Virus record (IMG/VR): IMGVR_UViG_3300029286_000029
Source of the DNA: a virus
Length of the DNA stretch: 64,000 bases
Strand: one strand, 5' to 3'
Of the stretch, positions 1 to 64,000 are shown piece after piece. The position numbers and the translations under genes are program-made. Position 1 is the first letter of the stretch, and each line of letters opens with the position of its first letter. A model generated the notes under the pieces. It was not told the origin of the DNA, ran no database searches, and was given only the letters and a program-made list of their open reading frames with translations.

Positions 1-117
1 CCACCTTCAGCATCATCTTCTTCATCTTCGACATCTTTACCTTTAACTTTTTTATCTTCATCATCAATTGACTCTTTTACAGACTTCTTAACTATACTTT
101 TTTTTGTTTTTGCCATG
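1..117 (-). CDS. Partial CDS (start codon at 115-117, runs off the left edge). Its N-terminus MAKTKKSIVKK belongs to the shared MKTKKSILK-tag family seen in the neighbouring small genes.
   Basis: Reverse-complement translation reads MAKTKKSIVKKSVKESIDDEDKKVKGKDVEDEEDDAEGG. The N-terminus matches those of ORFs 843..1355, 1374..1539 and 1540..1950. Confidence 0.35.
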
Positions 118-224
118 CTAGTTTCTTTATTTTTTTAATAATTGACTTTTTAAGAGATACATCGACCTTTAATCTGCCCTCGTTAAATGAATTTGCTGTT
201 GAAGTTGGACCAGAATAATTTTGA

Positions 225-428
225 TTAATATCCAACATTTTTCGTTTTCTTAACTGCCTTCTTCAAAACTGCCATCTTCTTAGCTTTAGGAATCTTAACT
301 TTTGTAAATTTACTAAAATTGAAATCCTTAGGCGTTTTATTCTTTGGCATTACAATCTTTGGTAGCTTAAAAGAAGTTGCCTTTGGCACTTTACTTAAGC
401 TACTGATTCTAGAACTTTTCATTGCCAT
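225..428 (-). CDS. Small lysine-rich basic protein of 67 aa. It may be a DNA-binding or internal virion protein.
   Basis: ORF track. Composition is very basic (K/R-rich) and it sits in the minus-strand structural block. Confidence 0.4.
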   Translation of the reverse strand: MAMKSSRISSLSKVPKATSFKLPKIVMPKNKTPKDFNFSKFTKVKIPKAKKMAVLKKAVKKTKNVGY

Positions 429-462
429 TTTTATTTTTAATTATACCACATTTATAATTTAA

Positions 463-819
463 TTAAATAACACCATACGCTCCTCCGTTTTCCTCTATGT
501 CTTTTTCTTTTTTATATTTAGGATTTTCTGTTTTTTTTGATTCAAACTTTAAAGAAAGAACTGCATCCTGTAAATCAAGCATCCCTGTAATTACACCCTG
601 ATACTGAGATATTTTTGACGGTTCCTTAACTGGATCGATTATTAGAAATGAATCCTGAATTGAAGCAATTCTTTCTTGATTGTATTTAAGAATTGCAAAC
701 CAAACTGGTGTTCCCTCTAATGCCCTGAGATGAGTTCTCATATCCTCGTTTGACATCTCTCTTACAGCTGTACGAATGTCATCTGTATAATAATCCTTGA
801 TTTGATTAGTTTTATTCAT
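463..819 (-). CDS. Hypothetical protein, 118 aa.
   Basis: ORF track. Strand is consistent with the neighbouring minus-strand block. Confidence 0.45.
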   Translation of the reverse strand: MNKTNQIKDYYTDDIRTAVREMSNEDMRTHLRALEGTPVWFAILKYNQERIASIQDSFLIIDPVKEPSKISQYQGVITGMLDLQDAVLSLKFESKKTENPKYKKEKDIEENGGAYGVI

Positions 820-842
820 ATTTTATATTATTTAATAATTAT

Positions 843-1355
843 TTATACCTTTTCTGAAACGTCTTTACCTTTTGTATATTTTGTATAACCACGCATTATA
901 CTACCAGGTTTATAATCTGGTTCCATCCAAGATGGCTTTACTTCAGTCTTCTGTTTAAATTCTGGTTTAAGAGTCTTTCTAATAGTCTTAAACTTAGAAT
1001 TAAAGTCTGAAACATCTTTTGGTGTAGGATTTATGATCTCCCCCATGGAATTCTTCTTTGAAGTAGTAGGAAAATTGCCTGGCGTTATCTTCTTTATGGT
1101 ATTTTTCAATATTTCTTTTTTAGGAGAAACAATTTCTTTAGCTTTTTTGAGAGCACTCCAAGCCCCTCCAATTGGCGCCTTTAGAGCGGCACTGGCATAA
1201 GAAACTGGATCATTACCGCCCATTAATGACTTATCATAAGCCAGATTCTTCTTAAATGTATCCTTAACACCAGAAATACCGGCTTTTACCACATCTTTCA
1301 ATGGTCCACCCTTACCCATACACACCTCTTTTAAAATTGATTTTTTAGTTTTCAT
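843..1355 (-). CDS. Hypothetical protein of 170 aa carrying the conserved N-terminal tag MKTKKSILKEV..GKGGP. Candidate internal virion protein.
   Basis: The N-terminus is shared with three neighbouring genes. It lies directly downstream of the candidate portal gene. Composition is basic and low-complexity. Confidence 0.5.
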   Translation of the reverse strand: MKTKKSILKEVCMGKGGPLKDVVKAGISGVKDTFKKNLAYDKSLMGGNDPVSYASAALKAPIGGAWSALKKAKEIVSPKKEILKNTIKKITPGNFPTTSKKNSMGEIINPTPKDVSDFNSKFKTIRKTLKPEFKQKTEVKPSWMEPDYKPGSIMRGYTKYTKGKDVSEKV

Positions 1356-1373
1356 CTTATTATTTTTAATTTA

Positions 1374-1539
1374 TTAATTACCTAAAGAATTTGATTTTGA
1401 CTTAGGAATTGCGGTGGCGGTTGGGGGTATCCCGGGATTCTCAAGAAGATTAATAGGGGAGTCGGCTTGAGAAAAAGAAGTTTGTTCTAAACCACCCTTA
1501 CCAAGATACCTTTTTAAAATAGCTTTTTTCTTATTCATA
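1374..1539 (-). CDS. Small protein of 54 aa, not in the ORF track. It has the same N-terminal tag (MNKKKAILKRYLGKGG) and the motif SPINLLENPGIPP.
   Basis: Manual translation of the minus strand gives MNKKKAILKRYLGKGGLEQTSFSQADSPINLLENPGIPPTATAIPKSKSNSLGN. The SPINLL motif also occurs in the C-terminus of the portal candidate. Confidence 0.4.
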
Positions 1540-1950
1540 TTATATCATTTTATTTATTCTTCTCTTCAGTGAATCTCTTTTAATATCCTTTTGACTCGGA
1601 ATCTGACCTTTCTGAACTTCAGTTTGACTCTGAATCATTCCACCTCTTGTTACAGGAGGAAGTGGTCTTTTTAAATTGGCCTGACTAGGAATACGTTGAG
1701 AAGGAACAACCACATCAGTTAAGTTTTTAGGACCTGGAGTAGCGAAATTAGTAGAATAAGTTATTCTTGGTTTTGTCTTAACTTGGACACTAGGATTTGT
1801 TGTTGAAGAAGGAAAAACTGACTTATTTATAATTTCCTTAGGAACAATGTCATTACCTCTTGTTCGTGTCCTTAAAATATCCCGAATATCATTATGAATA
1901 GGTCCACCTTGACCTAAATATTTTTTTAAAATTGATTTTTTAGTTTTCAT
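1540..1950 (-). CDS. Hypothetical protein with the N-terminal tag MKTKKSILKKYLGQGGP. The start was moved to the internal ATG; the ORF track gives 1540..1983.
   Basis: The internal Met gives an N-terminus homologous to the paralogs and removes the overlap with the upstream gene, whose stop is at 1955. Confidence 0.5.
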   Translation of the reverse strand: MKTKKSILKKYLGQGGPIHNDIRDILRTRTRGNDIVPKEIINKSVFPSSTTNPSVQVKTKPRITYSTNFATPGPKNLTDVVVPSQRIPSQANLKRPLPPVTRGGMIQSQTEVQKGQIPSQKDIKRDSLKRRINKMI

Positions 1951-1954
1951 CTTG

Positions 1955-4105
1955 TTATTTACCTTTCTGTAAACTACTTGCACGATTCATTAATGCACTT
2001 TCTGGATTGCTATTTGCACTATGAATACTTGTATTTGTATTCACCTTTCCTGTCCTGTTCATCCCCCTTGGATTCGTCGTAGGAAGTTGTACTCTCTGTC
2101 CGACACCCATTACAGTAGGTGGTAATCCACCAGAACCAAGTAAATTAATAGGGGAAGAGGCCTGACCAAAACCAGAAGGAGGTGTTCCACCCGAATTACC
2201 TCTCAACATAGCTAAGGCGCTTTGTGCTACATCAGGAGGAATATTTGACGTTCCTACAGGTGGAGCTGATACTTCAGGAGATCCAGAAACCATCTCCGCC
2301 ATAGGATCCGTTTGTATTGGTTGACCATCTGGACCCAACATCGGTTGTCCATCTGGACCAACAGACGACGATACCTCTTCTTCACCCTTTACCACTGAGT
2401 CGAGTGACCAGTTCCAATCCACAAGAATCTTTTGTGTAAGTTTTTGAGGATCAACAAATGGCAAATTGATAAGAAGTTGGAAAAGATCCATATCTTGCTT
2501 CTTTTTTATATCCTGTTGACCGGCAATAGATGGAAGAACAGAGGCTCTATAGTCAAATTTACCCTCCAAATCATCTTTTTGAATAATTGGGAATAATTCC
2601 TTACCATCGTCACCTACAATTCGAATAATCATGTCTTCTGTAAAGAATTGACGTGACATATCCATCCAATATCTCATTAAATCAGAAAAACCGTTACCTA
2701 AATGGTTAACAAACAGCCTAACGCGTTCCAAAGTAGACTCTCGAAGATGCCTTACCTCTGTTGCAGACCCTGCCGACCCACCTGCACCCATCGAAAAATC
2801 GTCAACGCCAGAAGCATAACGCATATCAGCCTTCAAAAGATCTTCTTCCTTGTAAGCACTGGCTTTTATATCACTAAACTGAACTTCCCGGACGCCATTT
2901 GGGTCTACAGAGTAAATAATACCGAAAGGACGCGTTACAAGTTCCTCCTTGTTGATATTTGCCAATGGATTAACGATCCACATCTTATGGATTGACAAAG
3001 TAGCAGAATCAAGACGTTGATTCTTGATCATGTTCATCATAATTTGAGGATTTTCCAAGATCATTGGCAAACCATAACCCTCAAATTCACCTGGAACCTT
3101 CAAATAAGGAAAATCAATGAAATTTGCTTCCTTAAAATCGTAAGGAATAGGCATCCAACCGTCCTTAAAGATAGGTGTCCAACTTCCGCCAACGTGAACA
3201 GAGTAAGAATCAGCAAAAGGTTGCGTCCATTCGAAAACTTCATACATCTGTAAGTCAGGATCACCGAAATTATTATATTTATCACTACCAAATCCATAGG
3301 CTGGTCCATTAAAAGTACTAATTCCTTTAACAATTAGGTCTTGATTTTGTTTTACTTGGACACGAATAGAGGCATAATCACTCAAATCACCTCCTGGATT
3401 ATTCAATGCTAGTTGTAAACGCTCAGGATCAGCGTTGGGATAACGTCTTTTAATCTCTGGTGCAGTCAAAACCAACCTTTTAAACCAATATTGCTTGTTT
3501 TGACGTTCGGTATTGTGCCAATCATACATGAGTGAGTAATTATCTACCCATTCAGCGCACGGAGCATCATAAAAAGTTCTTTCCTCCTCCTTCCATTCAT
3601 ATTTTTTCCTTAATATATCCTTTGTTTTAAGAAATTTTTGCTTTCTAACATCTTTTTTCCAAAAAACCTGTAAATATCCCATGCCATAGACAAGAGAAGA
3701 ACGAACTACATCTTCTGTCGTCTTGTCCATCTTGGAAATTTCCCATAAATAATCACCGAGTTGTTGTTGTTTTTCAGCTTTTAGTGCATCTTCCTGAGTT
3801 CTGCCTTGGACATCAAAATCTGGTCTAGCATCTAAAACACGAGGCATGAGGGTTTCCACTACAGCCTGAACGTAGGGTACAAATATATTTGATTGCCAAG
3901 ACTTTATTTGAAGTTGACGATCTCCGTTATAAGCAATATAAAGTTTATAAGATCGATCAAGACGAGGTTTGATTACCCGAAGGAAATATTGACGTGCATC
4001 TTGCATCTGAAGATGAAATTTCGACTGGAAAGAAACTTCCTCAGGACCGTAATCCGACGGGGTATAGGTATTAAAACGCGTATATTTATTAATTATGATA
4101 GACAT
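1955..4105 (-). CDS. Candidate portal protein, 716 aa. The C-terminal tail is rich in Gly, Pro and Ser.
   Basis: The call rests on position and size. It lies immediately downstream of the large terminase in the canonical order TerS-TerL-portal. No portal motif was recognised. Confidence 0.5.
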   Translation of the reverse strand: MSIIINKYTRFNTYTPSDYGPEEVSFQSKFHLQMQDARQYFLRVIKPRLDRSYKLYIAYNGDRQLQIKSWQSNIFVPYVQAVVETLMPRVLDARPDFDVQGRTQEDALKAEKQQQLGDYLWEISKMDKTTEDVVRSSLVYGMGYLQVFWKKDVRKQKFLKTKDILRKKYEWKEEERTFYDAPCAEWVDNYSLMYDWHNTERQNKQYWFKRLVLTAPEIKRRYPNADPERLQLALNNPGGDLSDYASIRVQVKQNQDLIVKGISTFNGPAYGFGSDKYNNFGDPDLQMYEVFEWTQPFADSYSVHVGGSWTPIFKDGWMPIPYDFKEANFIDFPYLKVPGEFEGYGLPMILENPQIMMNMIKNQRLDSATLSIHKMWIVNPLANINKEELVTRPFGIIYSVDPNGVREVQFSDIKASAYKEEDLLKADMRYASGVDDFSMGAGGSAGSATEVRHLRESTLERVRLFVNHLGNGFSDLMRYWMDMSRQFFTEDMIIRIVGDDGKELFPIIQKDDLEGKFDYRASVLPSIAGQQDIKKKQDMDLFQLLINLPFVDPQKLTQKILVDWNWSLDSVVKGEEEVSSSVGPDGQPMLGPDGQPIQTDPMAEMVSGSPEVSAPPVGTSNIPPDVAQSALAMLRGNSGGTPPSGFGQASSPINLLGSGGLPPTVMGVGQRVQLPTTNPRGMNRTGKVNTNTSIHSANSNPESALMNRASSLQKGK

Positions 4106-4135: not shown

Positions 4136-5617
4136 TTAATATCCAGCCGGAGGCATATAATTTTGATAATTCAATTGTGTCATTGGTTTATCACTTAAAA
4201 CCTTGAATCCTTGTAAGGCAATCGCCGTCGCAAAAATAGCATCATCATGATATCCGTCCATCGCAACCATATTATTAGCATCGTTAAAAATAAAAACCGT
4301 CATTTCATCTACTGTCTCTTTTGAATGTAAAGTAATGGTATCTTCCCTTGTACTTTGCTCAAATTCGTCAATTAAAATTGGCCGGGTTAATTTAGTTGTC
4401 TTCCAACCTAATTTGTCACTCCAAGGATTTCCAATTGTATCAAATCTTGCAGGACGAAAATACAAAGAAGGATAAAGCATTTGCTTAAGAATATTTAACA
4501 CAACACTTCCGTGCGCCTCTGCTTCTACCACCATCAGGGCGTTATTGTACTTTCTTCCCCACTTGTCCAGGACTTTTGCAAATTTATCTGGGGCAATATG
4601 ACCACGCCAAAAAGCGACCTCTTCCCCACTATTCCTATCTAAAATTACAGCAACGGCATAGTCACCCCCGGTTACGCCCTCTGAACAGTCAGCCCCAAGA
4701 ACATAAAAATGACCATTCTCTGGTGGTTTATAAATTCTAAATCCTTCTTCTTCCCGAACAATATGTTCAGATCCATCAGCCATCTTTACTGAACTACCTA
4801 CCTTTAAAACTCTCTTCCTTTGCAAGTTAATTGCTTCCTGTGTAAAAACAGATCGTCCAGAAATTAAAAACTCAAGAGCATAGTTGTTATTAAACTTACG
4901 CTCATTATTCATTCTTCTCTTAATTATCTCTATTTCTGATTCAGAATAATTCCACCACCACCCATATTCTTTTTTTATATAATCGTTATCAGAAACCCAC
5001 ATTCGATGGAAATAATCTCCCACAGCACCGGGAGAAGATTCGATAATTATTTTCCCGTTTACAGGAACAGACGCCTCGAGAGTCACCATTTTTTCTTCTG
5101 TTTTATCCCAGAAAGGCACCTCAGTCAACAAGGCATAATTTATTGTATATCCTCGACCAACGTTCTCAGTAGAAGGAAGAACTAAAATTTTAGAATCCAC
5201 CTTCGGAAAAGAAATTTCATACTTAGAGTTGTAATGGATCGTTGGTTTTATAGCGTCTGGAGTTGTCCTATAAAAAGTTTTAATTTTGTCCAAAAGTTCA
5301 GCCGTTAAGTCGTTGTTGTACCCAACTAACGCTGTCGTTACACCAGCAGTAGTAATTGTTTTATGATAAAGAAATCCAGTAACGGCAGTTGAAAATCCGA
5401 TCTGCCGCGCTTTCATTATAATAATACGGTTATTTCTTTGAATCGTATTAAAAATATCAAGTTGCGCAGGTTTAAGAATAAAGGGAACTAAACCCTTTCC
5501 TTCTTTTCCTTTGATTCTACAAAAATTCTCTATGTAGTATCTAGGATCAGCCAGTTGTTCAATTCCAGCATTAGTCATAAAGTCCTCTTGATTCTTTATT
5601 AGCCTTTTCTTTAGCAA
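4136..5617 (-). CDS. terL: Terminase large subunit (ATPase plus nuclease). The annotated start is TTG; an alternative ATG start at 5578 gives MTNAGIEQL.
   Basis: A Walker-A-like motif KARQIGFSTAV is typical of TerL. The C-terminal RNase H-like nuclease region carries acidic motifs (VLGADCSEG, MVVEAEAHG, DGYHDD). Confidence 0.85.
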   Translation of the reverse strand: MLKKRLIKNQEDFMTNAGIEQLADPRYYIENFCRIKGKEGKGLVPFILKPAQLDIFNTIQRNNRIIIMKARQIGFSTAVTGFLYHKTITTAGVTTALVGYNNDLTAELLDKIKTFYRTTPDAIKPTIHYNSKYEISFPKVDSKILVLPSTENVGRGYTINYALLTEVPFWDKTEEKMVTLEASVPVNGKIIIESSPGAVGDYFHRMWVSDNDYIKKEYGWWWNYSESEIEIIKRRMNNERKFNNNYALEFLISGRSVFTQEAINLQRKRVLKVGSSVKMADGSEHIVREEEGFRIYKPPENGHFYVLGADCSEGVTGGDYAVAVILDRNSGEEVAFWRGHIAPDKFAKVLDKWGRKYNNALMVVEAEAHGSVVLNILKQMLYPSLYFRPARFDTIGNPWSDKLGWKTTKLTRPILIDEFEQSTREDTITLHSKETVDEMTVFIFNDANNMVAMDGYHDDAIFATAIALQGFKVLSDKPMTQLNYQNYMPPAGY

Positions 5618-6087: not shown

Positions 6088-6762
6088 TTATTTTTTTCTT
6101 CTAGCCCTAACTGGTAATTTATCTAAATCCCTTATATAAACCAGGACATAGGAAGACCCACGATTACTCATTAGGCGATATCTTTCTCTTCCTAATTTTT
6201 CGTTAATAGAACTTATATGGTTAATTACATAATCTATAAACTTAGAATAGGTCATCTTACGTTCATCAGCAATTTTAAGTAATTCCAATCTGTCATCCAT
6301 CTTAGACACTAACGGTAAAAAATCTAAAGAAATATTTTTAAATGGGAATTTATAATATTCAGGATTTTTAAAAGGATTTTCCTCTACGAACAATGGAAAC
6401 AATTCAAGAAAATATGTTTCTAATGATGGAAAAATCCTACTCTTTGTAATAGGTTGAACGTCCTTACCGACAATCCGTCTTACAAATTTAGAAAAACCAA
6501 CGCAAAAACGAGGAGAATTATTCTTCATCTGAAGAGTAGACTTTTCCCCACTATATGAAAATTGTAAACGCAACCAAGATAACTTTACTGCATTATCAAA
6601 AAAAGAAGAATAAAAATCAGTTAAAAAATCCCGACTAAGATTAATATATTCATTTAAATCCATCCCATTAGAAACTGAAATATGATCTAAATTTAATCTA
6701 GCTGGATTTCTTATATGATCAGAAGAAAAAACATCTTCGTATGTTTTAGGGTACTGTTCCAT
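6088..6762 (-). CDS. Hypothetical protein, 224 aa.
   Basis: ORF track. It is tightly packed with its neighbours. Confidence 0.5.
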   Translation of the reverse strand: MEQYPKTYEDVFSSDHIRNPARLNLDHISVSNGMDLNEYINLSRDFLTDFYSSFFDNAVKLSWLRLQFSYSGEKSTLQMKNNSPRFCVGFSKFVRRIVGKDVQPITKSRIFPSLETYFLELFPLFVEENPFKNPEYYKFPFKNISLDFLPLVSKMDDRLELLKIADERKMTYSKFIDYVINHISSINEKLGRERYRLMSNRGSSYVLVYIRDLDKLPVRARRKK

Positions 6763-6800
6763 TGTTTTTTATTTATATTCATATTTATAACCAGCGAAAA

Positions 6801-7214
6801 CTATACTAACGCAGAACCTTCTTCTGGTGACGGAAGAACTTGCTCGTTTTGTACTTCTGGACTTTCAGAATCACCATTAAGTAAAGTCTTTAATGCCTGT
6901 TCAACCTGTTGATAGAGTTCTGGATTATTCTGTTTTATCGTATCTAAAAATTCTTTAACTTCTTCAGGATTATTCGGATCGATCCCTTTGGATTCGAATA
7001 AATCAAATAGTTCCCTAAGAACCTGACTCTTAATTTCTTGTGATTGATTATCTGAAGAAAACTTTTGAGCATTAAATTCTTGATATTTTCCATCAACTTT
7101 TGCCATCATGTCTTGAAGATTAGTTCTCATTTGATCTTGAGACAGTCCGGGATCATCAACCGGCGGCTGAACCTGCTGAGGAGTTTCGTTATCTGGTTGT
7201 ATTAATGGATCCAT
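6801..7214 (-). CDS. Highly acidic protein of 137 aa. It could be a scaffold or a DNA mimic.
   Basis: The ORF is rich in Asp, Glu and Gln and is predicted to be helical. Confidence 0.5.
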   Translation of the reverse strand: MDPLIQPDNETPQQVQPPVDDPGLSQDQMRTNLQDMMAKVDGKYQEFNAQKFSSDNQSQEIKSQVLRELFDLFESKGIDPNNPEEVKEFLDTIKQNNPELYQQVEQALKTLLNGDSESPEVQNEQVLPSPEEGSALV

Positions 7215-7237
7215 ATTTTTATATTAATTAATAATTT

Positions 7238-10200
7238 TTATTTAGAGATTTTAGTCGTGTCCAAAGTATACATCGGAATACCCGTAGTGCCAAGTACTGA
7301 GCGTAAAGTCTTAACAATGGCATTTTCTTTTGTCATCGCGCCGACTGAACTCCTCCCTTGTTCTGCCAGAGCCGTACTTCTAAAACGGTAACTTGGAATT
7401 AAATTAATTACCTCCGATGGTAATCCACCACCGAATAAACCTAAATATCCAAGTGACCCAGGGACAACTGACTCAAGCATTGTTCTTCCAGCATAAAAAG
7501 CTTTTATTCCTAGGTTATCTTTTGTCAATTTACCTTTATCATCATAGGTCGGATAAACCGGTTGGCCAAACTGTCCTTGTGGAGCTTGGTTTGTTCCAGA
7601 TAGGATTAAAGGTTGAATAAAAAAGTCTTTAATCACCTGTCCAGCTGGATCTTGCAATATCGGCATTTTATCTAACATCTTTAAGAAACGACCCTGAGCA
7701 GAATCATCATAAGTTTTTTCAGAAGGATTAAAAATGTTCATACCGTAAATTGGGATAGCATTTTTAACATTGGTGTTTATCATTCCAAAAATCTTCACAA
7801 CAGTTGGTGAGTTAAGATATTGATTATACTTTTCTTGCATCGCTAGTTTCTCAGCTGGTGTCCTCGAACCGGAAATTTCACTAAGCACAAAACCAATCTT
7901 ATTAAAAACAGCTGGGTTAGCAATTGCAGTTTTACCCATCTTAATCGCCATAGCGTATTGAAAAGAAAAGAACGGTGAACCCAAGATTGGTAAAGATTTC
8001 ATTATCTGAACAAATCCAGGCATTGCAGCATAATTCATAAAAGCCTCCATTGAAGCTTCCACTGCTTTCAGCGGAGTAAGACGATACAATTTCTCCCCCC
8101 CCGAAATTATTGGATCTAAAAAGTCTCCTTTTACTATCGGTATCTGTCTACTCATTGTCACTAACTCCTGCTCTGTTAAACCAACTTTGGTCATATAATT
8201 AACCGAAGCAATTTTTTGAATCTGATCAACATGCTCATACATCCTTGGGAGTTTATTAACCACCAGATTAGCTCCCTGGGCTATTATATTACCCGGTTCA
8301 TCTTCCACTATTTTAGCAATCCAATTTCTAAATTGATCAAGTTTCGCATTATTTATTTCATTCTCAAGGAACGAAGTAGTCTTCTCAGATTCTCTAACTG
8401 GAGCTTCTTTTGCTAATTTTGCTAAGGTTTCTGATTGTGTTGGGTATTTACCCATTGCCTGCTTCACAGATGAAATTTGTGTCTTAGTAGCTTCTTTTTC
8501 AAATTTTACAGCATCTTCAAACTTACTAGCATTTGACATAGCTGAATCAAAATCTTCCCATTGTTTAGATAAAAATGATTTTACTTCCTTAAAACCGTCA
8601 CCCTTACTTAATTCTCCAATAATTCTTTGTTCGATAGACATCTTATCAATCACAGTACTGGGACTAACTCCGGTAAAAGTTCTGAAGACATTAGAATTTT
8701 TCTCCATCATCTCAGTCAAAGAATTTATATCAGATAAAAACATGTTACGTAGCTCCAATGCGGTAAGTTTGTTATTTAAAAAATTACGAGCAGACATTAA
8801 TTCCTTTAAATAAGCCGCTTTGTAAGTAGGAATACCCAACATTGGACCCATAAGAAAGTTACCAGCGGTATTCACTACCGCCGATCCAACGTTCATTCCT
8901 GTTTTAGTTGCTTTCATTACAGCTGTCCAATCAACCAGACCGGTTAGAATCTTTTCAAAAGGATGCCATTCACCAGGGGTCATTTTAGGAATAGATTTTA
9001 CAACATCAATAGCATTAGTTTTAACAGCATTAGTTTTAACAGCATTAAAACTATTCCAAAGTCTAACAGTTTCTTCAGCACCATCAATAACAGCTTTTTC
9101 GACTTCTACCGCTGTTGCTGGAACTGATTTAAAACCATTTTTAACATAATTAAAAATGTCGTTATAACTTGTAGCCTTTACTTTATCTATAAAATTATCA
9201 TACCAAGATACCCCCGTTTTACCGTAGTCAACTACCTTATAAGCATCAACTAAACGCTTCATATTCTCACTGTCCTCAGCTATACCAGTAAGTACCTTGG
9301 CATTTTCTAATGAATCATAGATCTTAATTTTACCTGTTAGAGCTGGATTTAAGATCCCTTGAGCATTTCTTACTTCAAGATTATAAACACCATCAGCATC
9401 CTTTACTGCCATCTTAGCTAATTCATCCGTTGCTTCTGATATTGTTATAGTTGCACCTGGTTTTTCAAAATCAGCAATATCTACAAAGTGAGCTTTACCC
9501 ATAGATCTTTCGAATGCAGCACCCTTCATTTTGTATAATTGTTCAACTTCATCTTTTTGTTTTGTTACCGCCAGAGTATCTGCAGGAGAATACTTAAAGA
9601 ATTTAACAATCGATTCTCCACCGGAAACTTTTTTAATTAAATTTTCAACAGTCTTACCTACAACTCCAGACGGCAAACCAGTAAGAATTCCTTTTCCTAA
9701 TTTATCATAAACACTTGTTCCCATTAAGGAATCATATTTATCAGCATTTTTAATCGCTTTTGCTCCAATTTTTGCCACTATGTCAGTGTACCCTGGAACA
9801 TTATGAGCAAAAGGCACCAACTTCATTGCAGTTGCTGTTTTTTGTTCAACGCCAGATTTTAATCCTTCCCATCCAGTTTCAAGTGCCTTGGTAGGACTCC
9901 ACCCTCCACTAACGGCATTCTTAACTTCTGCCACTCTAGAACCAATAGATTCTCCTAATGGTTTCAATCCACTCTCTGCTACTTCTCTCAAAGCCGTCTC
10001 CCCTAAGTTTTTAGTCCCCGTCTTTAAGCCTCCTTTTATCAATCCCGCTCCCACTCTGGGGATAAGGGCTGCCGTCCCAGCGGTTGCCCAGTTGATCGGA
10101 TCCAACGCTACGTCTAAAGCAAAACCCAAAGGAATTTGGACAAAACGTGGTGCACCAAATTGAGTAAGAACATTACCGGCAGTAAGACCCGTTTCTATCG

Positions 10201-59019: not shown

Positions 59020-62000
59020 TTAATCGCTAAGAGAGGAAGTAGCATTATAAATAGAATTAAAATTCTTGACATAGTTTGGATTTTGATATTTACCTGAACC
59101 TGGTGGATAAGAATTAGTCATGCCCTTATTGTGAATATCTGCTATCTCAGCTGGAGAATAACCTAAATTATTTAGGTAAATAGCCTTGTTAATCATATAG
59201 GTATCTTGTAACTCTGGGGAAGATAAAAATTCTTGTTTAGTGATTTTCCTTCCTACATATCTTGGACCATAGGAACTCAATTCTCCTTCCGTCACACGAT
59301 ATTTACCCATTGCTGATCCTAAATTTGAATATCCAGATGGCTGGTGAGAAGAATATTTGTCCCCCTTAACAATACTGGTTTCATTAGTTCCTATCCCCTG
59401 TAAGAATTTTTTAGTATCCAAATTCGGAATTTGTTTTTCAGGTGCTTGATAGACACGGGTGTTTGATAAAACATTTTTTATTCCTCCCCATATATTAGAG
59501 ATAGGACCCCCTTGACCGTCGTTTTTTGTCGGACCACCTTGACCTTTTGGATCTAGTAAATCAAATTTCTTTTTTAAAGAATCTTTTAATTTATCAAAAT
59601 CAACATAATTGGCTGATTTTTTCATTTTAAAGATACTAGCGGCAACGTTTAATCCATCCTTAAGACCTTCTTCAAAAGTAGGTTCTCCACTGTTTTTAAG
59701 AACAATTTTACTTCCTAATTTCCATGTTTTAACTTCATCGGGAATATTAGCAGAAAGTTTTTTGATCTGTTCAAATAATAATTTCATCTGACTTGATAAT
59801 TCAGGTTTGACGAGTCCAACTCCACCGATCTCTTTTCTAAGAGAATTATATTCATTTATTAATTGATTTCTTGCTTCAGCGTTAAGAAGTCCGTTGGTCA
59901 TCATATCAAAGGGAGTCAAATCCTCGGAAACATTTTTTATTTGATTCTCGTCTTTTACTCTCATTCCCTCGGGAATAACTGGCGCTTTTCCTCCCGCGAT
60001 TTTGTCTAAACGATCTAATCTATTTTGTTCACTAATTTTACGTGTCTGAACATCAGCTCTCCCTACTGCCTTGCTAATATCGGCAGAACTTTTACCAGCA
60101 GTGATAGCTGCAATTCGACGATAAGGTTGAGAATGACTATAACCTTCTTCATTCGTGAGGTTAAACCAATTACGTGTAATGTTCCTTAAGGAAGAGTTTA
60201 ATTTCCAACTACCTTCCCACCCATATCTTGTTTGACCGGTATTTTTATCCTTAATATCGAATTTTTCACTCATAGCCGAATCAAAGGCTCTAGCAAAACC
60301 TTTGGCATAAGGATGTTCGCTCTTTTCCATGTTTTTTATATCAGTTGCCCATTCTTTGCTTGTACTCGAAAGATTGTCTTTATATAATTTAATTTCATCG
60401 CCTAACATTGAACCCCAATAATCTATCGGAGATAGATCTTTATTATTTAAAGTATTTCGGAATTCGTCAGAAAACATTGGATTACCTTTTTTATCCAATT
60501 CTAAATACTGGACGCCGTTCTCATTCGGTTCCTTAAGTTTTAAATTAAATTTATTAGCTAAAACCAAACTGGTATCTTTACCTCCAAGGTAATTTTGTGT
60601 CAGAGTAAAACGTTGTTTGTTTAAATTAGCGACTTGTTTTATTTCGTCACTCGTTAACGGTCTTTTTTCATTTTGAGCCTTCACATTAATGTTCTGCGTT
60701 TCTTGCTGGAGTTGAATATATTTTTTTATCTTTGACTCTAAGTCATTCATCTCAGTTTTTTCGAATGGTTTCAAGATAACTCCGTTATCACCTTCTATAC
60801 CACTACCAGTTTCTTTTCTCTTAAGTTCATTGTAACGTTTAATTAAAACATTATCACTTTCCGATTTCTTTGTTCGGGCATAAGTATCATCAGTTCCGAA
60901 GTATTTAGTTCCCTTATACGTTGAATCAATAAAATCTTGAACGAAAATTGTTGCCCGTCCTTTAGCGGTGCTCATCGCAGTCTTGAAATCTTCTTCCTTT
61001 AGACCTGGATTTTTTCTTTTAAATCCCTTAACCACATCCATGAGAATCTTTTCATGACTACTAGGATTAGTTGGTTTTATTTTAAGATTTTCAATTTTAT
61101 CTACCATATCTCCGAAGAATTCATTTGTGGACACGTCAATAGGATCTTTTGTAGACATTTTTGACGAAATAGCTTTTGAAACAATCTGGGATGATGGTTG
61201 AGCCACCTCAGATACTTTAATAGCATTCTGGGGCATTTTCGGGGCTAAATCGGCCTTCCTAGTGGTTTCTTCAAGTGAGATCGGGGTGCCAAGTTCAGCC
61301 ATTTTTCTTTTTACAAAGTCAGGTTGAAAATCCGCCGGTTGTGGGCTAACGGGAGTTTTTTCTGGGGTAATTGGTGTTGTTGGATTAACATCTTTTGTGG
61401 CAAGACTTCTGAGGTAATCATTCCTAGTGACATTAAATTCAATTGAGGGATCTTTTATGTTTTCTCCTGCACCAATAGGGGATATTTTAGTTACATCAAC
61501 AATTAAAACAGGAATATCTAATTCCTTCATCCTAGGAGTTACCATGGAATTATCGATTGTATATTTAACTAAAGAATTTGATGGCTGTAGATTCCTAAGA
61601 ATATCTTCATTAGTCATAGCAGGAACCTGATTCTTCATGGCGAATAGTTCCTGTGCTTTTTCTATCGTTATAGGTGAATCCTTAAAGGCCTTATCCTTAT
61701 TAATAATTTCCATTAAAGAATTAGCATCCGGAGAATTTAACCAGGTTGACTTAAAACGATTAACCATATCGATATATGGTTTATTTGTACTAAGAGGATT
61801 TTTTTCACTTATCCCTTTTGGTTGAGTAAAATATCCAATAGGCAGAAACTCCCCAGTATTCGTATCTTTCATAAAACCTCGTAAGGTATTTTCCGGATTA
61901 GAAATTGGCGGTGGAGTTCCACTAGAAATAGCTTCGTTATTAATTAACGTTCCAATCTTTTGAGACTTTTCATTTACGGGAAAATAAATTTTTCCGTCAC

Positions 62001-64000
62001 TTTTTCTCTTTCCGACAGCAAAATCATTAAGATTGGTTCGGGCTTCTGGATCTAAGGCGACTCCTTTTTCATCACGACCGATCCCCCTGGTTGTTGAATA
62101 ACCCTCTGGCAGGAGTTCATTCTTATATTTTTCTTGGATATCGACAGAAATATTATTTTTATCAACTACATTTATCGGTAATTTATCTAAAACTTCCGTG
62201 GCATTCATTGCCGGTCTAACTTGCTCCTTTTTGATTTGCGGTCTTAATTTCTCGCCAAGAGTAACCAGATCTTTCCATTCCTTCATTTGTCTCTCTGCTG
62301 TAGGTAACATCTGATTCCCCAGCTGGTTTATAGAGACAGCTACTCGTTGAAGTTCTTTTTGTATCTGTTCTTCTGATTTGACTTCCTTTTTGAAGTCTAA
62401 AACATTCTTACGTGATACTTGTTCCAAGAAGTTTAAAGCCTCCCACTCATTCGTGATTGGGCCGAGATCTTTAAATCTATTATCTAATGGATATTTCTTT
62501 TGATATTCAACTCTGGCATTATCATATTTTTGTAACGTCGGAGCATCAAAAGTAAGTTGCTGTGGAACAGCTTCTTTAAGTTTTATTGTTGGAAATAATC
62601 CGTCTGAATATTGATTGATTGTCGTCGCAGACATCTTGTACGCTTCATCACTTGCCATTCTATTGCGTGGATCCATTTTCCTATTTTTATATCCCATTCC
62701 ATGTAATCCGGTCATAATTATCCCTTCTTTTACTGCGTCTTGAATATCAGCACCTTGTATTAACGACCAAGCGGTAGTTCCTAGACCGACATGAGCATAT
62801 CCCTTGATTGTCTGGCCTCCCTTACCATAGACACCAGCAGAACCCAAAAGAGTACCGTAAATGGTATCAACGGCTGCTTGTTTAACATGATTTGAAAAAT
62901 CAAATTCTTCTTGTCCTGTCATTTCTCTTCCCGTCAATCCAAGTTGACCCCAAGCAGTAAGAAGAAGGGCATTGTTTTTTATTGAAGTTCCAACGGTAGT
63001 CCATTTTCCAACCTTCGCAACATTACCCACATCAGTAATAAGTCCCGCTGTCTTCAGTGCGCTATCGGCAACATTAACAGCTTTTTTAATTCCGAGAAGT
63101 GATTTTGCCCCCTTAATTCCAAGACCTATACCCTTACCCATAAGACCGATACCAGTCAGCATACCGACAAGATTACCGGCGAAGTTACTGATACCGCCAA
63201 CAATACCAGATTCCTTTGTTGGGGCGGTTCCAGGCACAATCCCTGCCGTTCCTCCGCCAACAAGTCCTTTAGCAAATTCACCAACTACTGGAATTTGATT
63301 ACCCAGATTCGACATATTTTCTTTAAAGGCTTCGCCAAAATAACTCCACATACTAGGACCTTCTTGCCATTTTTTAGCGATTTTTTCAGCCACGTCAACT
63401 GGAATATAACCTTTATCATCTGGAATGGGTATTCCTTTTGCCTCTTTATCTTTCCAGGTTAAAGCCATCACTTTAGCCTGATTAAGATCAATCTTACCAT
63501 TGGCTAACAGGGTAAGAGGAACAGACTGAACGGCTGTTTTTTGGGCGTGAGTTATATTATCAAAAATTTGTAAATTTCCCAGGGTATCAGCTCCACCAAT
63601 CCAAAGAGGAACGATGTGATCTACTTGATAATCTTGTGGGGATAATTTACCTAAAACTTTTTGTTTGGCACCAGGATTGATTTTGTAATCCATGATGGCT
63701 CGAGTAGATTTCACCATCTTACCCGGCTGGGTTGGATCCACAGCATATTGTCCACCACCCATGTCTAATGGCCAGTTTCTAAGATTTGTTTGATCTGATG
63801 GATTAACCCAATTACCGTTTGCGTCAGTAGGCGCAAACTGATTATAGCCCTCAGGAAGAGGTTGTGTTTTTGTTGCAGTATTTCGAATTGTCGGTTCAAA
63901 AACCCCCGACTGATAGTTCTCTACCTGCTGTGGGGCAATAGGTTGTCCAAGAGGAATCCCTGTTTCCACTTGTGTTGCTGATGGAACAGACTTTTTATTT
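59020..64000 (-). CDS. Giant protein of more than 1649 aa, 5'-partial. The annotated GTG start at 63969 has no upstream in-frame stop within the window. It has an HNH-like His-Me finger near the N-terminus and Gly-rich and coiled segments. Candidate tape-measure or ejected virion protein.
   Basis: DHIVPLWIGGADTLGNLQIFDNITHAQK is HNH-like. GKGIGLGIKGAKSLLGIKKAVNVADSALKTAGL is a Gly-rich segment. The ORF is open beyond position 64000. Confidence 0.65.
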   Translation of the reverse strand, partial: NKKSVPSATQVETGIPLGQPIAPQQVENYQSGVFEPTIRNTATKTQPLPEGYNQFAPTDANGNWVNPSDQTNLRNWPLDMGGGQYAVDPTQPGKMVKSTRAIMDYKINPGAKQKVLGKLSPQDYQVDHIVPLWIGGADTLGNLQIFDNITHAQKTAVQSVPLTLLANGKIDLNQAKVMALTWKDKEAKGIPIPDDKGYIPVDVAEKIAKKWQEGPSMWSYFGEAFKENMSNLGNQIPVVGEFAKGLVGGGTAGIVPGTAPTKESGIVGGISNFAGNLVGMLTGIGLMGKGIGLGIKGAKSLLGIKKAVNVADSALKTAGLITDVGNVAKVGKWTTVGTSIKNNALLLTAWGQLGLTGREMTGQEEFDFSNHVKQAAVDTIYGTLLGSAGVYGKGGQTIKGYAHVGLGTTAWSLIQGADIQDAVKEGIIMTGLHGMGYKNRKMDPRNRMASDEAYKMSATTINQYSDGLFPTIKLKEAVPQQLTFDAPTLQKYDNARVEYQKKYPLDNRFKDLGPITNEWEALNFLEQVSRKNVLDFKKEVKSEEQIQKELQRVAVSINQLGNQMLPTAERQMKEWKDLVTLGEKLRPQIKKEQVRPAMNATEVLDKLPINVVDKNNISVDIQEKYKNELLPEGYSTTRGIGRDEKGVALDPEARTNLNDFAVGKRKSDGKIYFPVNEKSQKIGTLINNEAISSGTPPPISNPENTLRGFMKDTNTGEFLPIGYFTQPKGISEKNPLSTNKPYIDMVNRFKSTWLNSPDANSLMEIINKDKAFKDSPITIEKAQELFAMKNQVPAMTNEDILRNLQPSNSLVKYTIDNSMVTPRMKELDIPVLIVDVTKISPIGAGENIKDPSIEFNVTRNDYLRSLATKDVNPTTPITPEKTPVSPQPADFQPDFVKRKMAELGTPISLEETTRKADLAPKMPQNAIKVSEVAQPSSQIVSKAISSKMSTKDPIDVSTNEFFGDMVDKIENLKIKPTNPSSHEKILMDVVKGFKRKNPGLKEEDFKTAMSTAKGRATIFVQDFIDSTYKGTKYFGTDDTYARTKKSESDNVLIKRYNELKRKETGSGIEGDNGVILKPFEKTEMNDLESKIKKYIQLQQETQNINVKAQNEKRPLTSDEIKQVANLNKQRFTLTQNYLGGKDTSLVLANKFNLKLKEPNENGVQYLELDKKGNPMFSDEFRNTLNNKDLSPIDYWGSMLGDEIKLYKDNLSSTSKEWATDIKNMEKSEHPYAKGFARAFDSAMSEKFDIKDKNTGQTRYGWEGSWKLNSSLRNITRNWFNLTNEEGYSHSQPYRRIAAITAGKSSADISKAVGRADVQTRKISEQNRLDRLDKIAGGKAPVIPEGMRVKDENQIKNVSEDLTPFDMMTNGLLNAEARNQLINEYNSLRKEIGGVGLVKPELSSQMKLLFEQIKKLSANIPDEVKTWKLGSKIVLKNSGEPTFEEGLKDGLNVAASIFKMKKSANYVDFDKLKDSLKKKFDLLDPKGQGGPTKNDGQGGPISNIWGGIKNVLSNTRVYQAPEKQIPNLDTKKFLQGIGTNETSIVKGDKYSSHQPSGYSNLGSAMGKYRVTEGELSSYGPRYVGRKITKQEFLSSPELQDTYMINKAIYLNNLGYSPAEIADIHNKGMTNSYPPGSGKYQNPNYVKNFNSIYNATSSLSD

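What the first reader, a model, noticed from the sequence alone, without database searches (positions are those of the whole stretch)
1..1983. Family of four or more small proteins sharing an N-terminal MKTKKSILK..G.GG tag directly downstream of the portal gene. Candidate capsid-targeting/propeptide sequence.
Four adjacent minus-strand genes begin with near-identical N-termini: 1..117 (partial) MAKTKKSIVKK, 843..1355 MKTKKSILKEVCMGKGGP, 1374..1539 MNKKKAILKRYLGKGGL, and 1540..1950 MKTKKSILKKYLGQGGP. Their downstream sequences are unrelated, basic and low-complexity.

A conserved N-terminal peptide of about 15 aa on otherwise divergent proteins, placed right after the candidate portal gene, is analogous to the capsid-targeting sequences of T4 internal proteins. 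Those sequences are removed by the prohead protease. In addition, the motif SPINLL(E/G) is shared between ORF 1374 (SPINLLENPGIPP) and the C-terminal tail of the portal candidate (SPINLLGSGGLPP). This hints at a shared processing or interaction site. These genes may therefore encode packaged or ejected internal proteins.
Basis: seen in the sequence. Interest (0 to 1): 0.6.

Follow-up and report, generated by a model that had tools for sequence, protein, structure and literature searches.

The report
Shared address tag on phage head proteins
Three small, very basic proteins encoded right after the portal gene of an uncultured phage share a conserved 17-residue peptide that related phages attach to at least 15 unrelated protein tails, so it looks like a portable docking tag for loading variable proteins into the phage head, although nothing shows that it is cut off by a head protease.

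Summary
A tag profile built only from related phages picks out exactly these three among 957 window ORF segments. The fourth "member" (1-116, partial) has only the KKSIVKK half, scores below threshold, and is not adjacent.

The tag, KK-x-I-L-K-K-x-x-G-(K/Q)-G-G-P, is conserved at the protein level with synonymous codon changes. It occurs on 34 distinct proteins falling into 15 unrelated tail families. All lie in a hypervariable slot between the portal gene and a conserved 118-aa gene. It is N-terminal in 27 and internal in 7.

SPINLL is part of a 40-column match (P 3e-16) between p54 and the portal's C-terminal tail. The GxGGP half recurs in two large proteins of a putative ejection/cell-wall operon (6 occurrences against 0.35 expected).

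No prohead protease was found in about 78 kb of sequence. About 55 larger window proteins were profile-scanned.

Best reading: a portable docking peptide that brings variable basic proteins into the procapsid, as in T4 internal proteins or P22 ejection proteins. Cleavage is unproven, and packaging is inferred, not shown.

The parts
1540..1950 (-). p136: tag protein 1 (136 aa, pI 11.1, net +19); tag = residues 1-17, MKTKKSILKKYLGQGGP
   Evidence: ORF; tag HMM E 1e-6; called as a gene in public assemblies; orthologues in L011, L125 and L129
1374..1538 (-). p54: tag protein 2 (54 aa); tag plus a copy of the portal-tail motif
   Evidence: Tag HMM E 5e-5; portal-tail HMM E 7e-12; hhalign against portal tails P 3.3e-16 over 40 columns; family of 8 and further members
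843..1355 (-). p170: tag protein 3 (170 aa, pI 10.0, net +21); tag MKTKKSILKEVCMGKGGP
   Evidence: Tag HMM E 3e-3; family of 8 orthologues; single-sequence AlphaFold2 mean pLDDT 49, no confident fold, helix at 4-12 then coil at the GKGG
1900..1950 (-). Tag-coding segment of p136
1488..1538 (-). Tag-coding segment of p54
1302..1355 (-). Tag-coding segment of p170
1924..1960 (-). 37-nt repeat copy A (10 nt upstream of the ATG plus 27 nt of coding sequence), 36/37 identical to copy B
   Evidence: none expected in shuffles
1329..1365 (-). 37-nt repeat copy B; indicates recent gene conversion between p136 and p170
1398..1478 (-). Portal-tail-like motif in p54 (SFSQADSPINLLENPGIPPTATAIPKS)
   Evidence: (residues 23-49 of the ORF segment)
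2099..2173 (-). Corresponding motif in the portal's C-terminal tail (GFGQASSPINLLGSGGLPPTVMGVG)
   Evidence: found in portal tails of 45 related loci (about 33 distinct sequences), down to about 57% portal identity
1955..4105 (-). Portal protein (716 aa) with a C-terminal tail of about 150 residues rich in Pro, Gly, Ser, Thr, Asn and Gln
   Evidence: Pfam and PHROG hits; composition of the tail
463..819 (-). p118: conserved all-helical 118-aa protein that bounds the variable slot on the downstream side
   Evidence: 138 homologues, all unannotated; AlphaFold2 pLDDT 82; no informative fold match
92..238 (-). p48: 48-aa protein with a capsid-protein N-terminus-like motif (TSTANSFNEGRLKVDV) followed by KKSIIKKIKK, which looks like the first half of the tag
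   Evidence: hhalign of the p48 family against capsid-protein N-termini: Prob 95.3%, P 2.2e-8; in L031, L036 and L079 this motif sits in front of a tag plus tail
1..116 (-). p50 (partial in the window; 50 aa in L085): KKSIVKK half-tag, an acidic insert, then EGGPF
   Evidence: (domain E 0.09)
59020..64000 (-). Giant protein (1719 aa; its ATG lies beyond the window end) carrying two GQGGP motifs near its C-terminus (codons at about 59517 and 59544)
   Evidence: HMM of the 846-aa family motif hits it at E 0.004

Best explanation
p136, p54 and p170 are small, very basic, probably largely disordered accessory proteins of the head module. They share a portable peptide of about 17 residues: a basic/hydrophobic stretch KK-x-(I/L/M)-(L/I/M)-K-K-x-x followed by a glycine turn G-(K/Q)-G-G-(P/L/M).

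I propose the peptide is a docking ("address") element that recruits whatever tail is attached to it into the assembling procapsid. The most likely partner is the acidic scaffold-like protein (pI 4.7) or another internal head component. This would parallel P22, where N-terminal parts of ejection proteins mediate incorporation that depends on scaffolding protein, and T4, where the capsid-targeting sequence loads internal proteins. The proteins would then stay with the DNA as internal or ejected proteins.

p54 additionally carries a free copy of a 40-residue stretch of the portal's own C-terminal tail, so it should bind whatever that tail binds.

The evidence does not require removal of the tag. 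If removal happens, a classical prohead protease is unlikely. A host oligopeptidase, as for P22 gp7, is the better candidate.

Shown: the sequence family, its conservation, its modularity, the motif sharing, and the lack of a detectable protease gene. Inferred: packaging, the binding partner and the fate of the tag.
For: 1. Specificity. A tag HMM built from relatives finds only these three ORFs in the window.

2. Selection on the peptide. The amino acids are conserved while Gly, Leu, Ile, Lys, Cys and Ala codons vary among paralogues and orthologues.

3. Portability. 34 distinct tag proteins from this clade form 15 tail clusters at BLASTP E<1e-3: three recurrent families and 12 singletons.

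4. Position. Every tag gene whose context was retrieved lies in the head module. Most are in the 0-1.5 kb hypervariable slot between portal and p118, while the flanking genes stay 57-84% identical. A strict DNA pattern found no other copies in IMG/VR, including a 101-kb contig.

5. Motif sharing with core head proteins.
- p54 against the portal tail: P 3.3e-16.
- The p48 family against the capsid-protein N-terminus: P 2.2e-8.

6. GxGGP distribution. G[KQR]GG[PLMVF] occurs 6 times in a 78-kb composite against 0.35 in shuffles. The occurrences are in the three tag proteins, an 846-aa protein and the 1719-aa protein, which share an operon with an M23 peptidase and a LysM protein. In the 846-aa family the motif is nearly invariant near the N-terminus, preceded by AKSvLSIMKKvGG.

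7. Charge complementarity. The tag proteins carry net +5 to +21; the scaffold-like protein carries -15.

8. Precedents.
- P22 ejection proteins need scaffolding protein, not portal, and their N-terminal parts mediate incorporation.
- The 10 N-terminal residues of T4 IPIII suffice for targeting (both PMC8402733).
- T4 internal proteins are diverse and share only the conserved targeting sequence (PMC3012670).
Against: - There is no proteomic or structural evidence that these proteins are in virions.
- The phage is uncultured and has no characterised relatives.
- The slot is empty in some relatives (L013-L015), so these proteins are dispensable accessories.
- The full tag with GKGG is confined to the subclade with portal identity of about 73% or more. 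More distant relatives have only looser KK-x-I-L-K-K N-termini or unrelated proteins.
- The tag is not significantly amphipathic by hydrophobic moment against shuffles, and the AlphaFold2 model is low-confidence.
- Similarity of the tag to the 846-aa protein motif is weak: HMM E 3-6, hhalign P 0.008 over 7-14 columns.
- Similarity of the tag to the portal segment upstream of SPINLL is not significant.
- No binding partner has been identified.
Confidence: 0.4

Rival explanations
1. The tag is a T4-type capsid-targeting propeptide that is removed by a phage-encoded prohead protease after assembly.
For: A conserved N-terminal peptide on divergent proteins in a hypervariable head-module locus matches the T4 internal-protein pattern. 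An invariant Gly-Gly could be a cleavage site.
Against: - There is no protease gene between portal and capsid genes, where such genes normally lie.
- No prohead-protease or adenain-like family appears among about 55 Pfam-scanned window proteins.
- A separate acidic scaffold-like protein is present.
- The tag is internal or C-terminal in 7 of 34 proteins.
- There is no sequence similarity to the T4 sequence.
Confidence: 0.06
2. A leader is cut by a non-classical protease at or near the Gly-Gly. The enzyme could be a host oligopeptidase, as for P22 gp7, or the phage's own M23 peptidase. M23 is a family that includes glycyl-glycine endopeptidases, and the phage gene sits in the operon whose proteins also carry GQGGP.
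For: - The 20-residue N-terminal leader of P22 gp7 is removed by host OpdA, and the mature protein starts KGGKGG (GenBank BK000583 note; PMC8402733).
- An M23 peptidase gene lies next to the 846-aa protein.
- GxGGP is restricted to five virion-module proteins.
- From my own memory, not checked here: the classic oligopeptidase A substrate is cleaved at Gly|Gly-Pro.
Against: - The resemblance to gp7 is four low-complexity residues.
- P22 cleavage is before KGGKGG, not within a GG-P.
- Phage M23 domains are usually peptidoglycan hydrolases.
- The host is unknown.
- Nothing here tests cleavage.
Confidence: 0.12
3. The proteins are not packaged cargo but assembly regulators or decoys. By copying pieces of the portal tail (p54), and in the neighbouring p48 the capsid-protein N-terminus, they would compete for or pre-occupy the binding sites of those elements. 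This could control portal incorporation or nucleation, and they would leave before or during DNA packaging.
For: Significant mimicry of the portal tail and of the capsid N-terminus. Location among the assembly genes. The proteins are dispensable in some relatives.
Against: This does not explain why the same tag sits on 15 unrelated, fast-evolving, strongly basic tails. It also does not explain why GxGGP is shared with the large operon proteins.
Confidence: 0.15
4. The tag has no dedicated function. The genes are paralogues whose tails drifted apart. Their starts are kept alike by gene conversion and by the Lys/Asn-rich N-terminal codon bias of an AT-rich genome.
For: 36/37-nt identity, including the upstream region, between p136 and p170. 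Many genes here start MNK or MKK.
Against: - In L011 and L001 the paralogous tags differ at synonymous sites yet keep the peptide.
- The G-x-G-G part is not explained by AT bias.
- The tag persists across portal identities of 73-84%, and also at internal positions.
- The HMM separates the tags from all other K-rich N-termini.
Confidence: 0.1
5. The conserved element acts at the nucleotide level, as a translation-initiation region or RNA structure, and the peptide similarity is a by-product.
For: In this window the identity extends 10 nt upstream of the ATG.
Against: - Synonymous divergence in relatives.
- The tag is found in the middle or at the end of ORFs.
- No Rfam match.
- No excess of promoter-like or terminator-like sites.
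Confidence: 0.02

Closest known systems
Phage T4 internal proteins (IPI, IPII, IPIII) and their capsid-targeting sequence
   Same: A short conserved N-terminal peptide on otherwise unrelated, basic, dispensable proteins. The locus is hypervariable between related phages. The genes belong to the head module (PMC3012670; PMC8402733).
   Different: - No sequence similarity to the T4 peptide.
- T4 targets the proteins to a scaffolding core and removes the peptide with the gp21 prohead protease. No such protease is found here.
- The tag can be internal.
- The phage is a podovirus-type lineage with an SU10/P22-like portal and an SU10-like capsid protein, not a T4-like myovirus.
P22 ejection proteins gp7, gp20 and gp16 (and SU10 gp20-24)
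   Same: - A protease-less, scaffold-dependent head.
- Internal proteins are recruited through their N-terminal parts in a scaffolding-protein-dependent way.
- gp7 has an N-terminal leader next to a KGGKGG sequence.
- SU10 has five ejection proteins, one with transglycosylase activity (PMC9509320). This resembles the operon encoding the 846-aa protein, M23 peptidase, LysM protein and 1719-aa protein here.
   Different: - No detectable homology: no PHROG or Pfam hits for the tag proteins.
- P22 ejection proteins share no common tag.
- The P22 gp7 leader is dispensable and is cut by a host enzyme.
- The proteins here are much smaller and sit next to the portal gene rather than after the tail genes.
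Encapsulin cargo-loading (targeting) peptides
   Same: A short conserved terminal peptide is joined by a flexible Gly-rich linker to diverse cargo. The cargo genes lie next to the gene of an HK97-fold shell, and the peptide docks the cargo to the shell lumen (PMC8346489, listed).
   Different: The consensus is different. Encapsulin peptides are usually C-terminal. The cargo there is enzymes, not basic low-complexity proteins. Binding to the capsid lumen is untested here.
T7 gp6.7 and gp7.3 (my own knowledge, not checked here)
   Same: Small basic virion proteins encoded beside the portal gene of a podovirus and released at infection.
   Different: No shared tag is known for them, and no homology was detected. 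This is a resemblance from memory, not a test.

Membership tests
T4-type internal proteins with capsid-targeting sequence | Conserved short N-terminal peptide on otherwise unrelated proteins | tested here: met
   Tag HMM hits; tails unrelated; 15 tail clusters
T4-type internal proteins with capsid-targeting sequence | Hypervariable locus in which only the tag is conserved between related phages | tested here: met
   The slot between portal and p118 spans about 0-1.5 kb with 0-3 genes, while the flanks are conserved. A p170 search of 5.8 billion proteins finds only itself plus one 41%-identical hit
T4-type internal proteins with capsid-targeting sequence | Sequence relationship to the T4 peptide or to T4 internal-protein families | tested here: not met
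   No PHROG or Pfam family for any tag protein; no phage-database match
T4-type internal proteins with capsid-targeting sequence | Phage-encoded prohead protease that removes the peptide | tested here: not met
   None lies between portal and capsid genes. None was found among about 55 Pfam-scanned window proteins, and the gene tables for both extensions carry no protease annotation other than M23. Caveats: the genome is not closed, and small or unscanned ORFs remain
T4-type internal proteins with capsid-targeting sequence | Proteins present inside the head and ejected with the DNA | not testable with these tools
   Needs virion proteomics
Paralogue of the portal C-terminal tail (applies to p54 only) | Significant sequence similarity to the portal tail of the same phage clade | tested here: met
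   HMM E 7e-12; hhalign Prob 98.7%, P 3.3e-16, 40 columns starting at the G-K-G-G. The KK-x-I-L-K-K part is not covered: P 0.13
P22 gp7-type ejection protein with host-cleaved leader | N-terminal leader removed by a host oligopeptidase; mature N-terminus KGGKG | tested here: inconclusive
   Only a GKGG resemblance. Cleavage is not testable and the host is unknown
Encapsulin cargo-loading peptides | Terminal peptide plus flexible linker on cargo encoded near an HK97-fold shell gene | tested here: met
   Tag plus Gly-rich turn. The capsid gene (Pfam SU10_MCP) lies about 3-7 kb downstream of the tag genes
Encapsulin cargo-loading peptides | Binding of the peptide to the shell lumen, and the family consensus motif | not testable with these tools
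   Binding needs experiments or multimer modelling. By eye the consensus differs from what I recall for encapsulins
Double-glycine leader peptides (bacteriocin-type export signals) | Leader ending in GG together with a C39-peptidase ABC transporter | tested here: not met
   No C39 peptidase or ABC exporter among the scanned proteins. The tag is strongly basic, and by inspection it lacks the conserved acidic/hydrophobic spacing
Sec or lipoprotein signal peptides | Hydrophobic core after the basic N-terminus; lipobox before the Cys | tested here: not met
   By inspection there is no hydrophobic stretch after the tag. KKAC-G does not fit a lipobox

The most novel reading that the evidence does not exclude
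The heads of this protease-less podovirus lineage use a small code of short linear motifs to load variable cargo. The KK-x-I-L-K-K/GxGGP tag would be a transferable encapsidation signal shared by small accessory proteins and by the large ejection proteins. Other accessory peptides would dock by imitating the portal's C-terminal tail (p54) or the capsid protein's N-terminal arm (p48). If so, this would be the first sequence-defined packaging signal for internal proteins in a scaffold-dependent podovirus, and a direct handle on how ejection proteins are recruited.
Probability: 0.22. Interest if true: 0.72.

Novelty: new variant of a known kind. Interest (0 to 1): 0.52.

Why it matters
How internal and ejection proteins are recruited into procapsids of phages without a prohead protease (P22, T7, SU10 and relatives) is poorly understood. 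For P22 it is known only that scaffolding protein and the N-terminal parts of the proteins are needed (PMC8402733).

A short, sequence-defined, portable tag attached to many unrelated tails would make that question directly testable with fusion proteins. It could also be used to load foreign proteins into capsids, as the T4 sequence has been.

The variable, strongly basic tails in a hyperplastic slot are also candidates for injected host-takeover or anti-defence proteins, by analogy with T4 IPI*.

The copying of portal-tail and capsid-arm motifs into free-standing peptides is, as far as I know, undescribed.

Tried and rejected
1. **Tag derived from the portal segment upstream of SPINLL (ALAMLRGG).** The architecture is the same, but it is not significant (HMM; hhalign P 0.13).

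2. **The giant protein carries a full tag.** The tag HMM does not hit it. Only the GQGGP half is shared.

3. **C-terminal lytic transglycosylase in the giant protein.** This was my guess from reading the sequence. Pfam, PHROG and PDB searches gave no support; the only hit is a weak HNH motif at residues 110-157 of the window ORF.

4. **Programmed -1 frameshift joining p48 to p50 at the A8 run.** Neither the overlap nor the slippery site is conserved in L001 and L011. Translational coupling is more likely.

5. **Frameshift fusion of portal and p136 through the overlapping GTG ORF (1540-1983).** The arrangement is not conserved in relatives.

6. **Amphipathic-helix claim.** The hydrophobic moment does not exceed shuffles.

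7. **Function of p118 from its fold.** The model is good (pLDDT 82), but Foldseek against the PDB gives only generic helical hairpins with E>2.

8. **Close relatives of the giant and 846-aa proteins in IMG/VR by pattern scan.** None found.

9. **Loose tag pattern in metagenomes.** Most hits are unrelated recurring families: a 360-630-aa enzyme with KKEILKKLKGKGGL.AYLGT, which I take to be butyrate-kinase-like, and a KKYLLKKFPGKGGWT family.

10. **Signal peptide, lipobox, double-glycine leader, adenovirus-type (M/L/I)XGG|X site.** Rejected by inspection and by the absence of the matching enzymes.

11. **RNA element or promoter.** No Rfam match and no excess of sites.

12. **Spurious hits in the representative search.** Two long repeat proteins (P0125, P0133) match p54 only through low complexity.

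Full report
**Context**

The window is part of an uncultured phage genome with about 35% GC.
- On the minus strand it reads, from about 6.1 kb down to position 1: a possible small terminase gene (weak PHROG hit only), large terminase (4136-5617; PHROG 2, E 4e-30), portal (1955-4105; Pfam SU10_portal 1.9e-22, P22_portal 9.8e-22), then a run of small genes.
- There is no DNA match in 50,697 phage records. The only protein match for the portal is 27% identity to a Bacillus phage.
- IMG/VR holds at least 110 stretches encoding portal relatives. I kept 80 loci with 56-84% identity, from contigs up to about 102 kb.
- Public assemblies carrying identical genes let me extend the window by 9,144 nt on the left (L085) and 5,014 nt on the right (L207). 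The composite is 78,158 nt and its ends do not overlap.
- To the left, the head module continues with small genes, a 265-aa acidic scaffold-like protein, and a capsid gene of the SU10_MCP family that is interrupted by two insertions carrying LAGLIDADG ORFs.

**The observation**

Three consecutive genes after the portal start with MKTKKSILKKYLGQGGP (p136, 1540-1950), MNKKKAILKRYLGKGGL (p54, 1374-1538) and MKTKKSILKEVCMGKGGP (p170, 843-1355).
- A 17-column profile built only from tags of other phages recovers exactly these three among 957 six-frame ORF segments of the window (E 1e-6, 5e-5, 3e-3). The next hit is at E 0.85.
- KK[SA]I[LVI]K occurs five times in the six-frame translation of the 64 kb, all within the first 2 kb.
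- p136 and p170 match each other only over residues 1-33 (E 3e-5). Their tails do not match (E 0.3).
- The proteins are strongly basic: pI 10-11, net charge up to +21.
- Gene callers of three public assemblies call the same ORFs.

Corrections to the finding:
- The fourth gene begins at 116.
- It encodes a 50-aa protein with only the KKSIVKK half of the tag, followed by an acidic insert and then EGGPF.
- It is below threshold (domain E 0.09).
- It is separated from p170 by three other genes.
- A fifth, partial copy (KKSIIKKIKK) forms the C-terminus of the 48-aa ORF 92-238.

**Duplication or conserved element?**

In this genome p136 and p170 share 27/27 coding nucleotides plus 9/10 upstream, which indicates recent gene conversion. 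That is local. In L011 the two equivalent tags differ at four synonymous positions. Across orthologues the Gly, Leu, Ile, Lys, Cys and Ala codons vary while the peptide is kept. In an alignment of 14 tag proteins the only invariant or nearly invariant columns are K4, K5, K9, G14, G16 and G17, against a mean column identity of 22%.

**Modularity**

I collected 34 distinct tag-bearing proteins from clade members in IMG/VR and in metagenomes.
- Their tails form 15 clusters at BLASTP E<1e-3. Three families recur (p54-like 8, p170-like 8, p136-like 4) and 12 are singletons, including Pro/Met/Gly-rich and other low-complexity tails.
- Every tag gene whose context was retrieved lies in the head module. 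Most are in the slot between the portal gene and a conserved 118-aa gene (p118, 463-819).
- The slot varies from about 0 to 1.5 kb and holds 0-3 genes, while portal and p118 stay conserved.
- A strict back-translated pattern found the tag only at these positions in IMG/VR, including in a 101-kb contig.
- A looser pattern in metagenomes found 12 more matches in this clade, all N-terminal and each with portal, terminase or p118 homologues on the same contig. The remaining hits were unrelated families and chance matches.
- The tag is not obligatorily N-terminal. In L082, L009, L005 and P0123/P0127 the tag-plus-SPINLL unit follows a domain of about 50 residues (MPFxSxAQMR...EWADAT).
- In P0130 the unit is at the C-terminus of a 223-aa protein. 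In L031 and L036 the tag follows a capsid-arm-like motif.
- More distant relatives often have only a looser KK-x-I-L-K-K start, or quite different proteins, in the slot.

**The SPINLL motif**

The portal tails of this clade carry a conserved F-x-(Q/E)-A-(S/G)-(S/A)-P-I-N-L-L-x2-3-G-x-P-P-T-A-x2-I-P motif. It was found in 45 related loci, down to about 57% portal identity.
- A profile of that motif hits p54 at E 7e-12.
- Profile-profile alignment of the p54 family against the portal tails gives Prob 98.7%, P 3.3e-16, over 40 columns that begin at the G-K-G-G and run to the end of p54.
- p54 is therefore a free-standing copy of a stretch of the portal's disordered C-terminal tail, prefixed by the basic half of the tag.
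- The basic half itself cannot be shown to derive from the portal (P 0.13).
- Nothing indicates that SPINLL is a processing site.

**A second case of the same kind**

The p48 family (92-238 and 17 relatives) aligns with the N-terminal arm of the capsid protein of these phages: P-x-T-T-A-x-S-x2-E-G-R-L-K-V-D against R-T-T-A-x-S-x-A-E-G-R-L-I-V-D-A-V-D. The score is Prob 95.3%, P 2.2e-8. Its C-terminal KKK-I-I-KK-x-L-KK tail looks like the first half of the tag.

**The GxGGP half elsewhere**

- In the 78-kb composite, G[KQR]GG[PLMVF] occurs six times in six-frame ORFs of 40 aa or more. Residue shuffles give 0.35 (none of 1000 shuffles reach six). Without the three tags the count is three, P 0.005.
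- The three extra copies lie in an 846-aa protein (SIMKKIGGLKNDGQGGPIDSIL, residues about 55-75) and twice near the C-terminus of the 1719-aa protein (KGQGGPTKNDGQGGPISNIW).
- Both genes sit in one operon with a 135-aa Peptidase_M23 gene and a 588-aa LysM gene.
- One homologue of the 846-aa protein has an SLT transglycosylase domain.
- This looks like the ejection/cell-wall module of short-tailed phages. SU10 has five ejection proteins, one with transglycosylase activity (PMC9509320).
- In 44 homologues of the 846-aa protein, the N-terminal GSTKR-x-QAKSvLSIMKKvGG-x2-NDG(Q/M)GGP is nearly invariant.
- A profile of it hits the giant protein (E 0.004), but hits the tags only at E 3-6. hhalign of tags against this region gives P 0.008 over 7-14 columns.
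- So the architecture (basic/hydrophobic stretch, then a Gly-Gly-Pro turn) is shared, but homology is only suggestive.

**Protease**

- No protease gene lies between portal and capsid genes in this phage or in L001.
- Pfam scans of about 55 window proteins found no prohead protease, adenain-like protease or C39 peptidase.
- The only peptidase seen in the two extensions is the M23 domain noted above.
- A separate scaffold-like protein (265 aa, pI 4.7, net -15) precedes the capsid gene.
- From general knowledge of the P22, T7 and SU10 types, this fits scaffold-dependent, protease-independent assembly.
- The genome is not closed and short ORFs were not scanned, so absence is not absolute.

**Precedents**

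- P22 incorporation: ejection proteins need scaffolding protein but not portal, and the N-terminal parts of gp7 and gp20 mediate incorporation (PMC8402733).
- P22 cleavage: gp7 loses a 20-residue leader to host OpdA and then starts KGGKG; the leader is largely dispensable. The GenBank note and my translation agree: MLYAFTLGRKLRGEEPSYPE|KGGKGGADK.
- The GKGG resemblance is too short to count as homology. It does show that N-terminal processing of an ejection protein can occur without a phage protease.

**Interpretation**

The sequence facts are best explained by a portable docking peptide under purifying selection that brings interchangeable, basic, probably disordered tails into the head. The acidic scaffold is the most plausible partner. 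p54 additionally uses the portal-tail motif. I put this at about 0.4.

The main alternatives are:
- leader cleavage by a host or M23 peptidase (0.12);
- assembly regulators or decoys that are not packaged (0.15);
- no dedicated function (0.10);
- a nucleotide-level element (0.02).

AlphaFold2 on p170 alone is low-confidence (mean pLDDT 49). It shows a helix at residues 4-12 and a break at the GKGG. The hydrophobic moment of the tag is not above shuffles, so I do not claim an amphipathic helix.

**Novelty and score**

The logic (conserved tag, variable cargo, hyperplastic head locus) is known from T4. The sequence family, the lineage, the protease-less setting, the internal placements, and the copying of portal-tail and capsid-arm motifs into separate peptides are new as far as these searches and my knowledge go. 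I rate this as a new variant of a known kind, interest about 0.5.

Noticed in passing
window 92-238 (-); relatives in L001, L005, L007, L008, L011, L016 and others: A family of 40-60-aa proteins copies a motif from the N-terminal arm of the phage's own major capsid protein (P.TTA.S..EGRLKVD). It ends in a basic KKKIIKKxLKK tail. hhalign Prob 95.3%, P 2.2e-8.
   Followed up: yes
L085 4326-8208 (left extension of the window): The major capsid gene (Pfam SU10_MCP on the last piece) is split into at least three pieces by two insertions carrying LAGLIDADG homing-endonuclease ORFs (4619-5293 on +, 6651-7424 on -). Rfam finds no group I or II intron there.
   Followed up: partly
L207 15469-20297 (right extension) and window 59020-64000 (-): An operon of a 341+ aa protein, a 588-aa LysM protein, a 135-aa Peptidase_M23, an 846-aa protein (one homologue has an SLT domain) and a 1719-aa protein. 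It is probably the ejection/cell-wall-degrading module. The 846-aa family has a nearly invariant N-terminal GSTKR.QAKSvLSIMKKvGG..NDG(Q/M)GGP.
   Followed up: partly
window 59020-63969 (-): The giant protein has a weak HNH-nuclease-like motif (residues 110-157 of the window ORF) and a Gly-rich hydrophobic stretch (about residues 230-330). Pfam and the PDB give no other recognisable domain.
   Followed up: partly
window 463-819 (-): p118 is a highly conserved all-helical 118-aa protein (138 homologues, all unannotated). It always lies at the downstream edge of the variable slot. The AlphaFold2 model is confident (pLDDT 82) but has no informative fold match.
   Followed up: yes
window 28562-30181 (-): Phage-encoded GroEL-like chaperonin (Cpn60_TCP1, E 3e-63).
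   Followed up: no
window 21651-24675 (+): A phiEco32-like COOH-NH2 ligase (E 5e-12) is followed by a weakly GATase-like protein. This is another link to Kuravirus-type phages. From memory, such ligases have been proposed to modify peptides or proteins.
   Followed up: no
window 37400-37831 (-): A 143-aa protein with a prepilin-type N-terminal methylation motif (N_methyl, E 3.5e-7), which is unusual in a phage.
   Followed up: no
window 56128-56688 (+), 47911-48921 (+), 33416-33937 (-), 10557-10868 (-), 40627-41817 (-), 37833-38687 (-): Auxiliary genes: peptide deformylase, RecA, a Fic/DOC protein, an HU-like DNA-binding protein, a nucleotidyl transferase with an N-terminal HNH domain, and an SPFH/Band 7 protein. 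There are also four tRNAs (Trp, Tyr, Pro, Asn) at 11551, 13153, 14644 and 28015.
   Followed up: no
L082 1167-1475, L009 10613-10921, L005 10596-10913, L008 12156-12482; P0123, P0127: An N-terminal domain of about 50 residues, MPFxSxAQMRxAFxGxLGPxM...EWADAT, has no Pfam match. In several relatives it is fused in front of the tag-plus-SPINLL unit. In L012 and L024 a shorter MP(Y)VSxKQE... variant stands alone.
   Followed up: partly
window 88-150 (-): The end of ORF 92-238 overlaps the start of the next gene across an A8 run (A_AAA_AAA). I considered a -1 frameshift. The overlap and the slippery site are not conserved in L001 or L011.
   Followed up: yes
window 2316-2359 (-): A tandem GPDGQP(M/I) repeat in the portal tail, encoded by a 20-nt direct repeat that is 90% identical.
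   Followed up: no
P0011, P0037, P0043 (homologues of p118): NCBI MAG records label contigs of this phage clade as Candidatus Shapirobacteria, Nanoarchaeota and Bacilli. These are probably binning artefacts. The host of the clade is unknown.
   Followed up: no
L085 8348-9064 and 9100-9837: Two paralogous proteins of about 240 aa lie just after the capsid gene (both start MASL.SLQ.RS... and end ...Y.RE). They have no family match and may be decoration or auxiliary capsid proteins.
   Followed up: no
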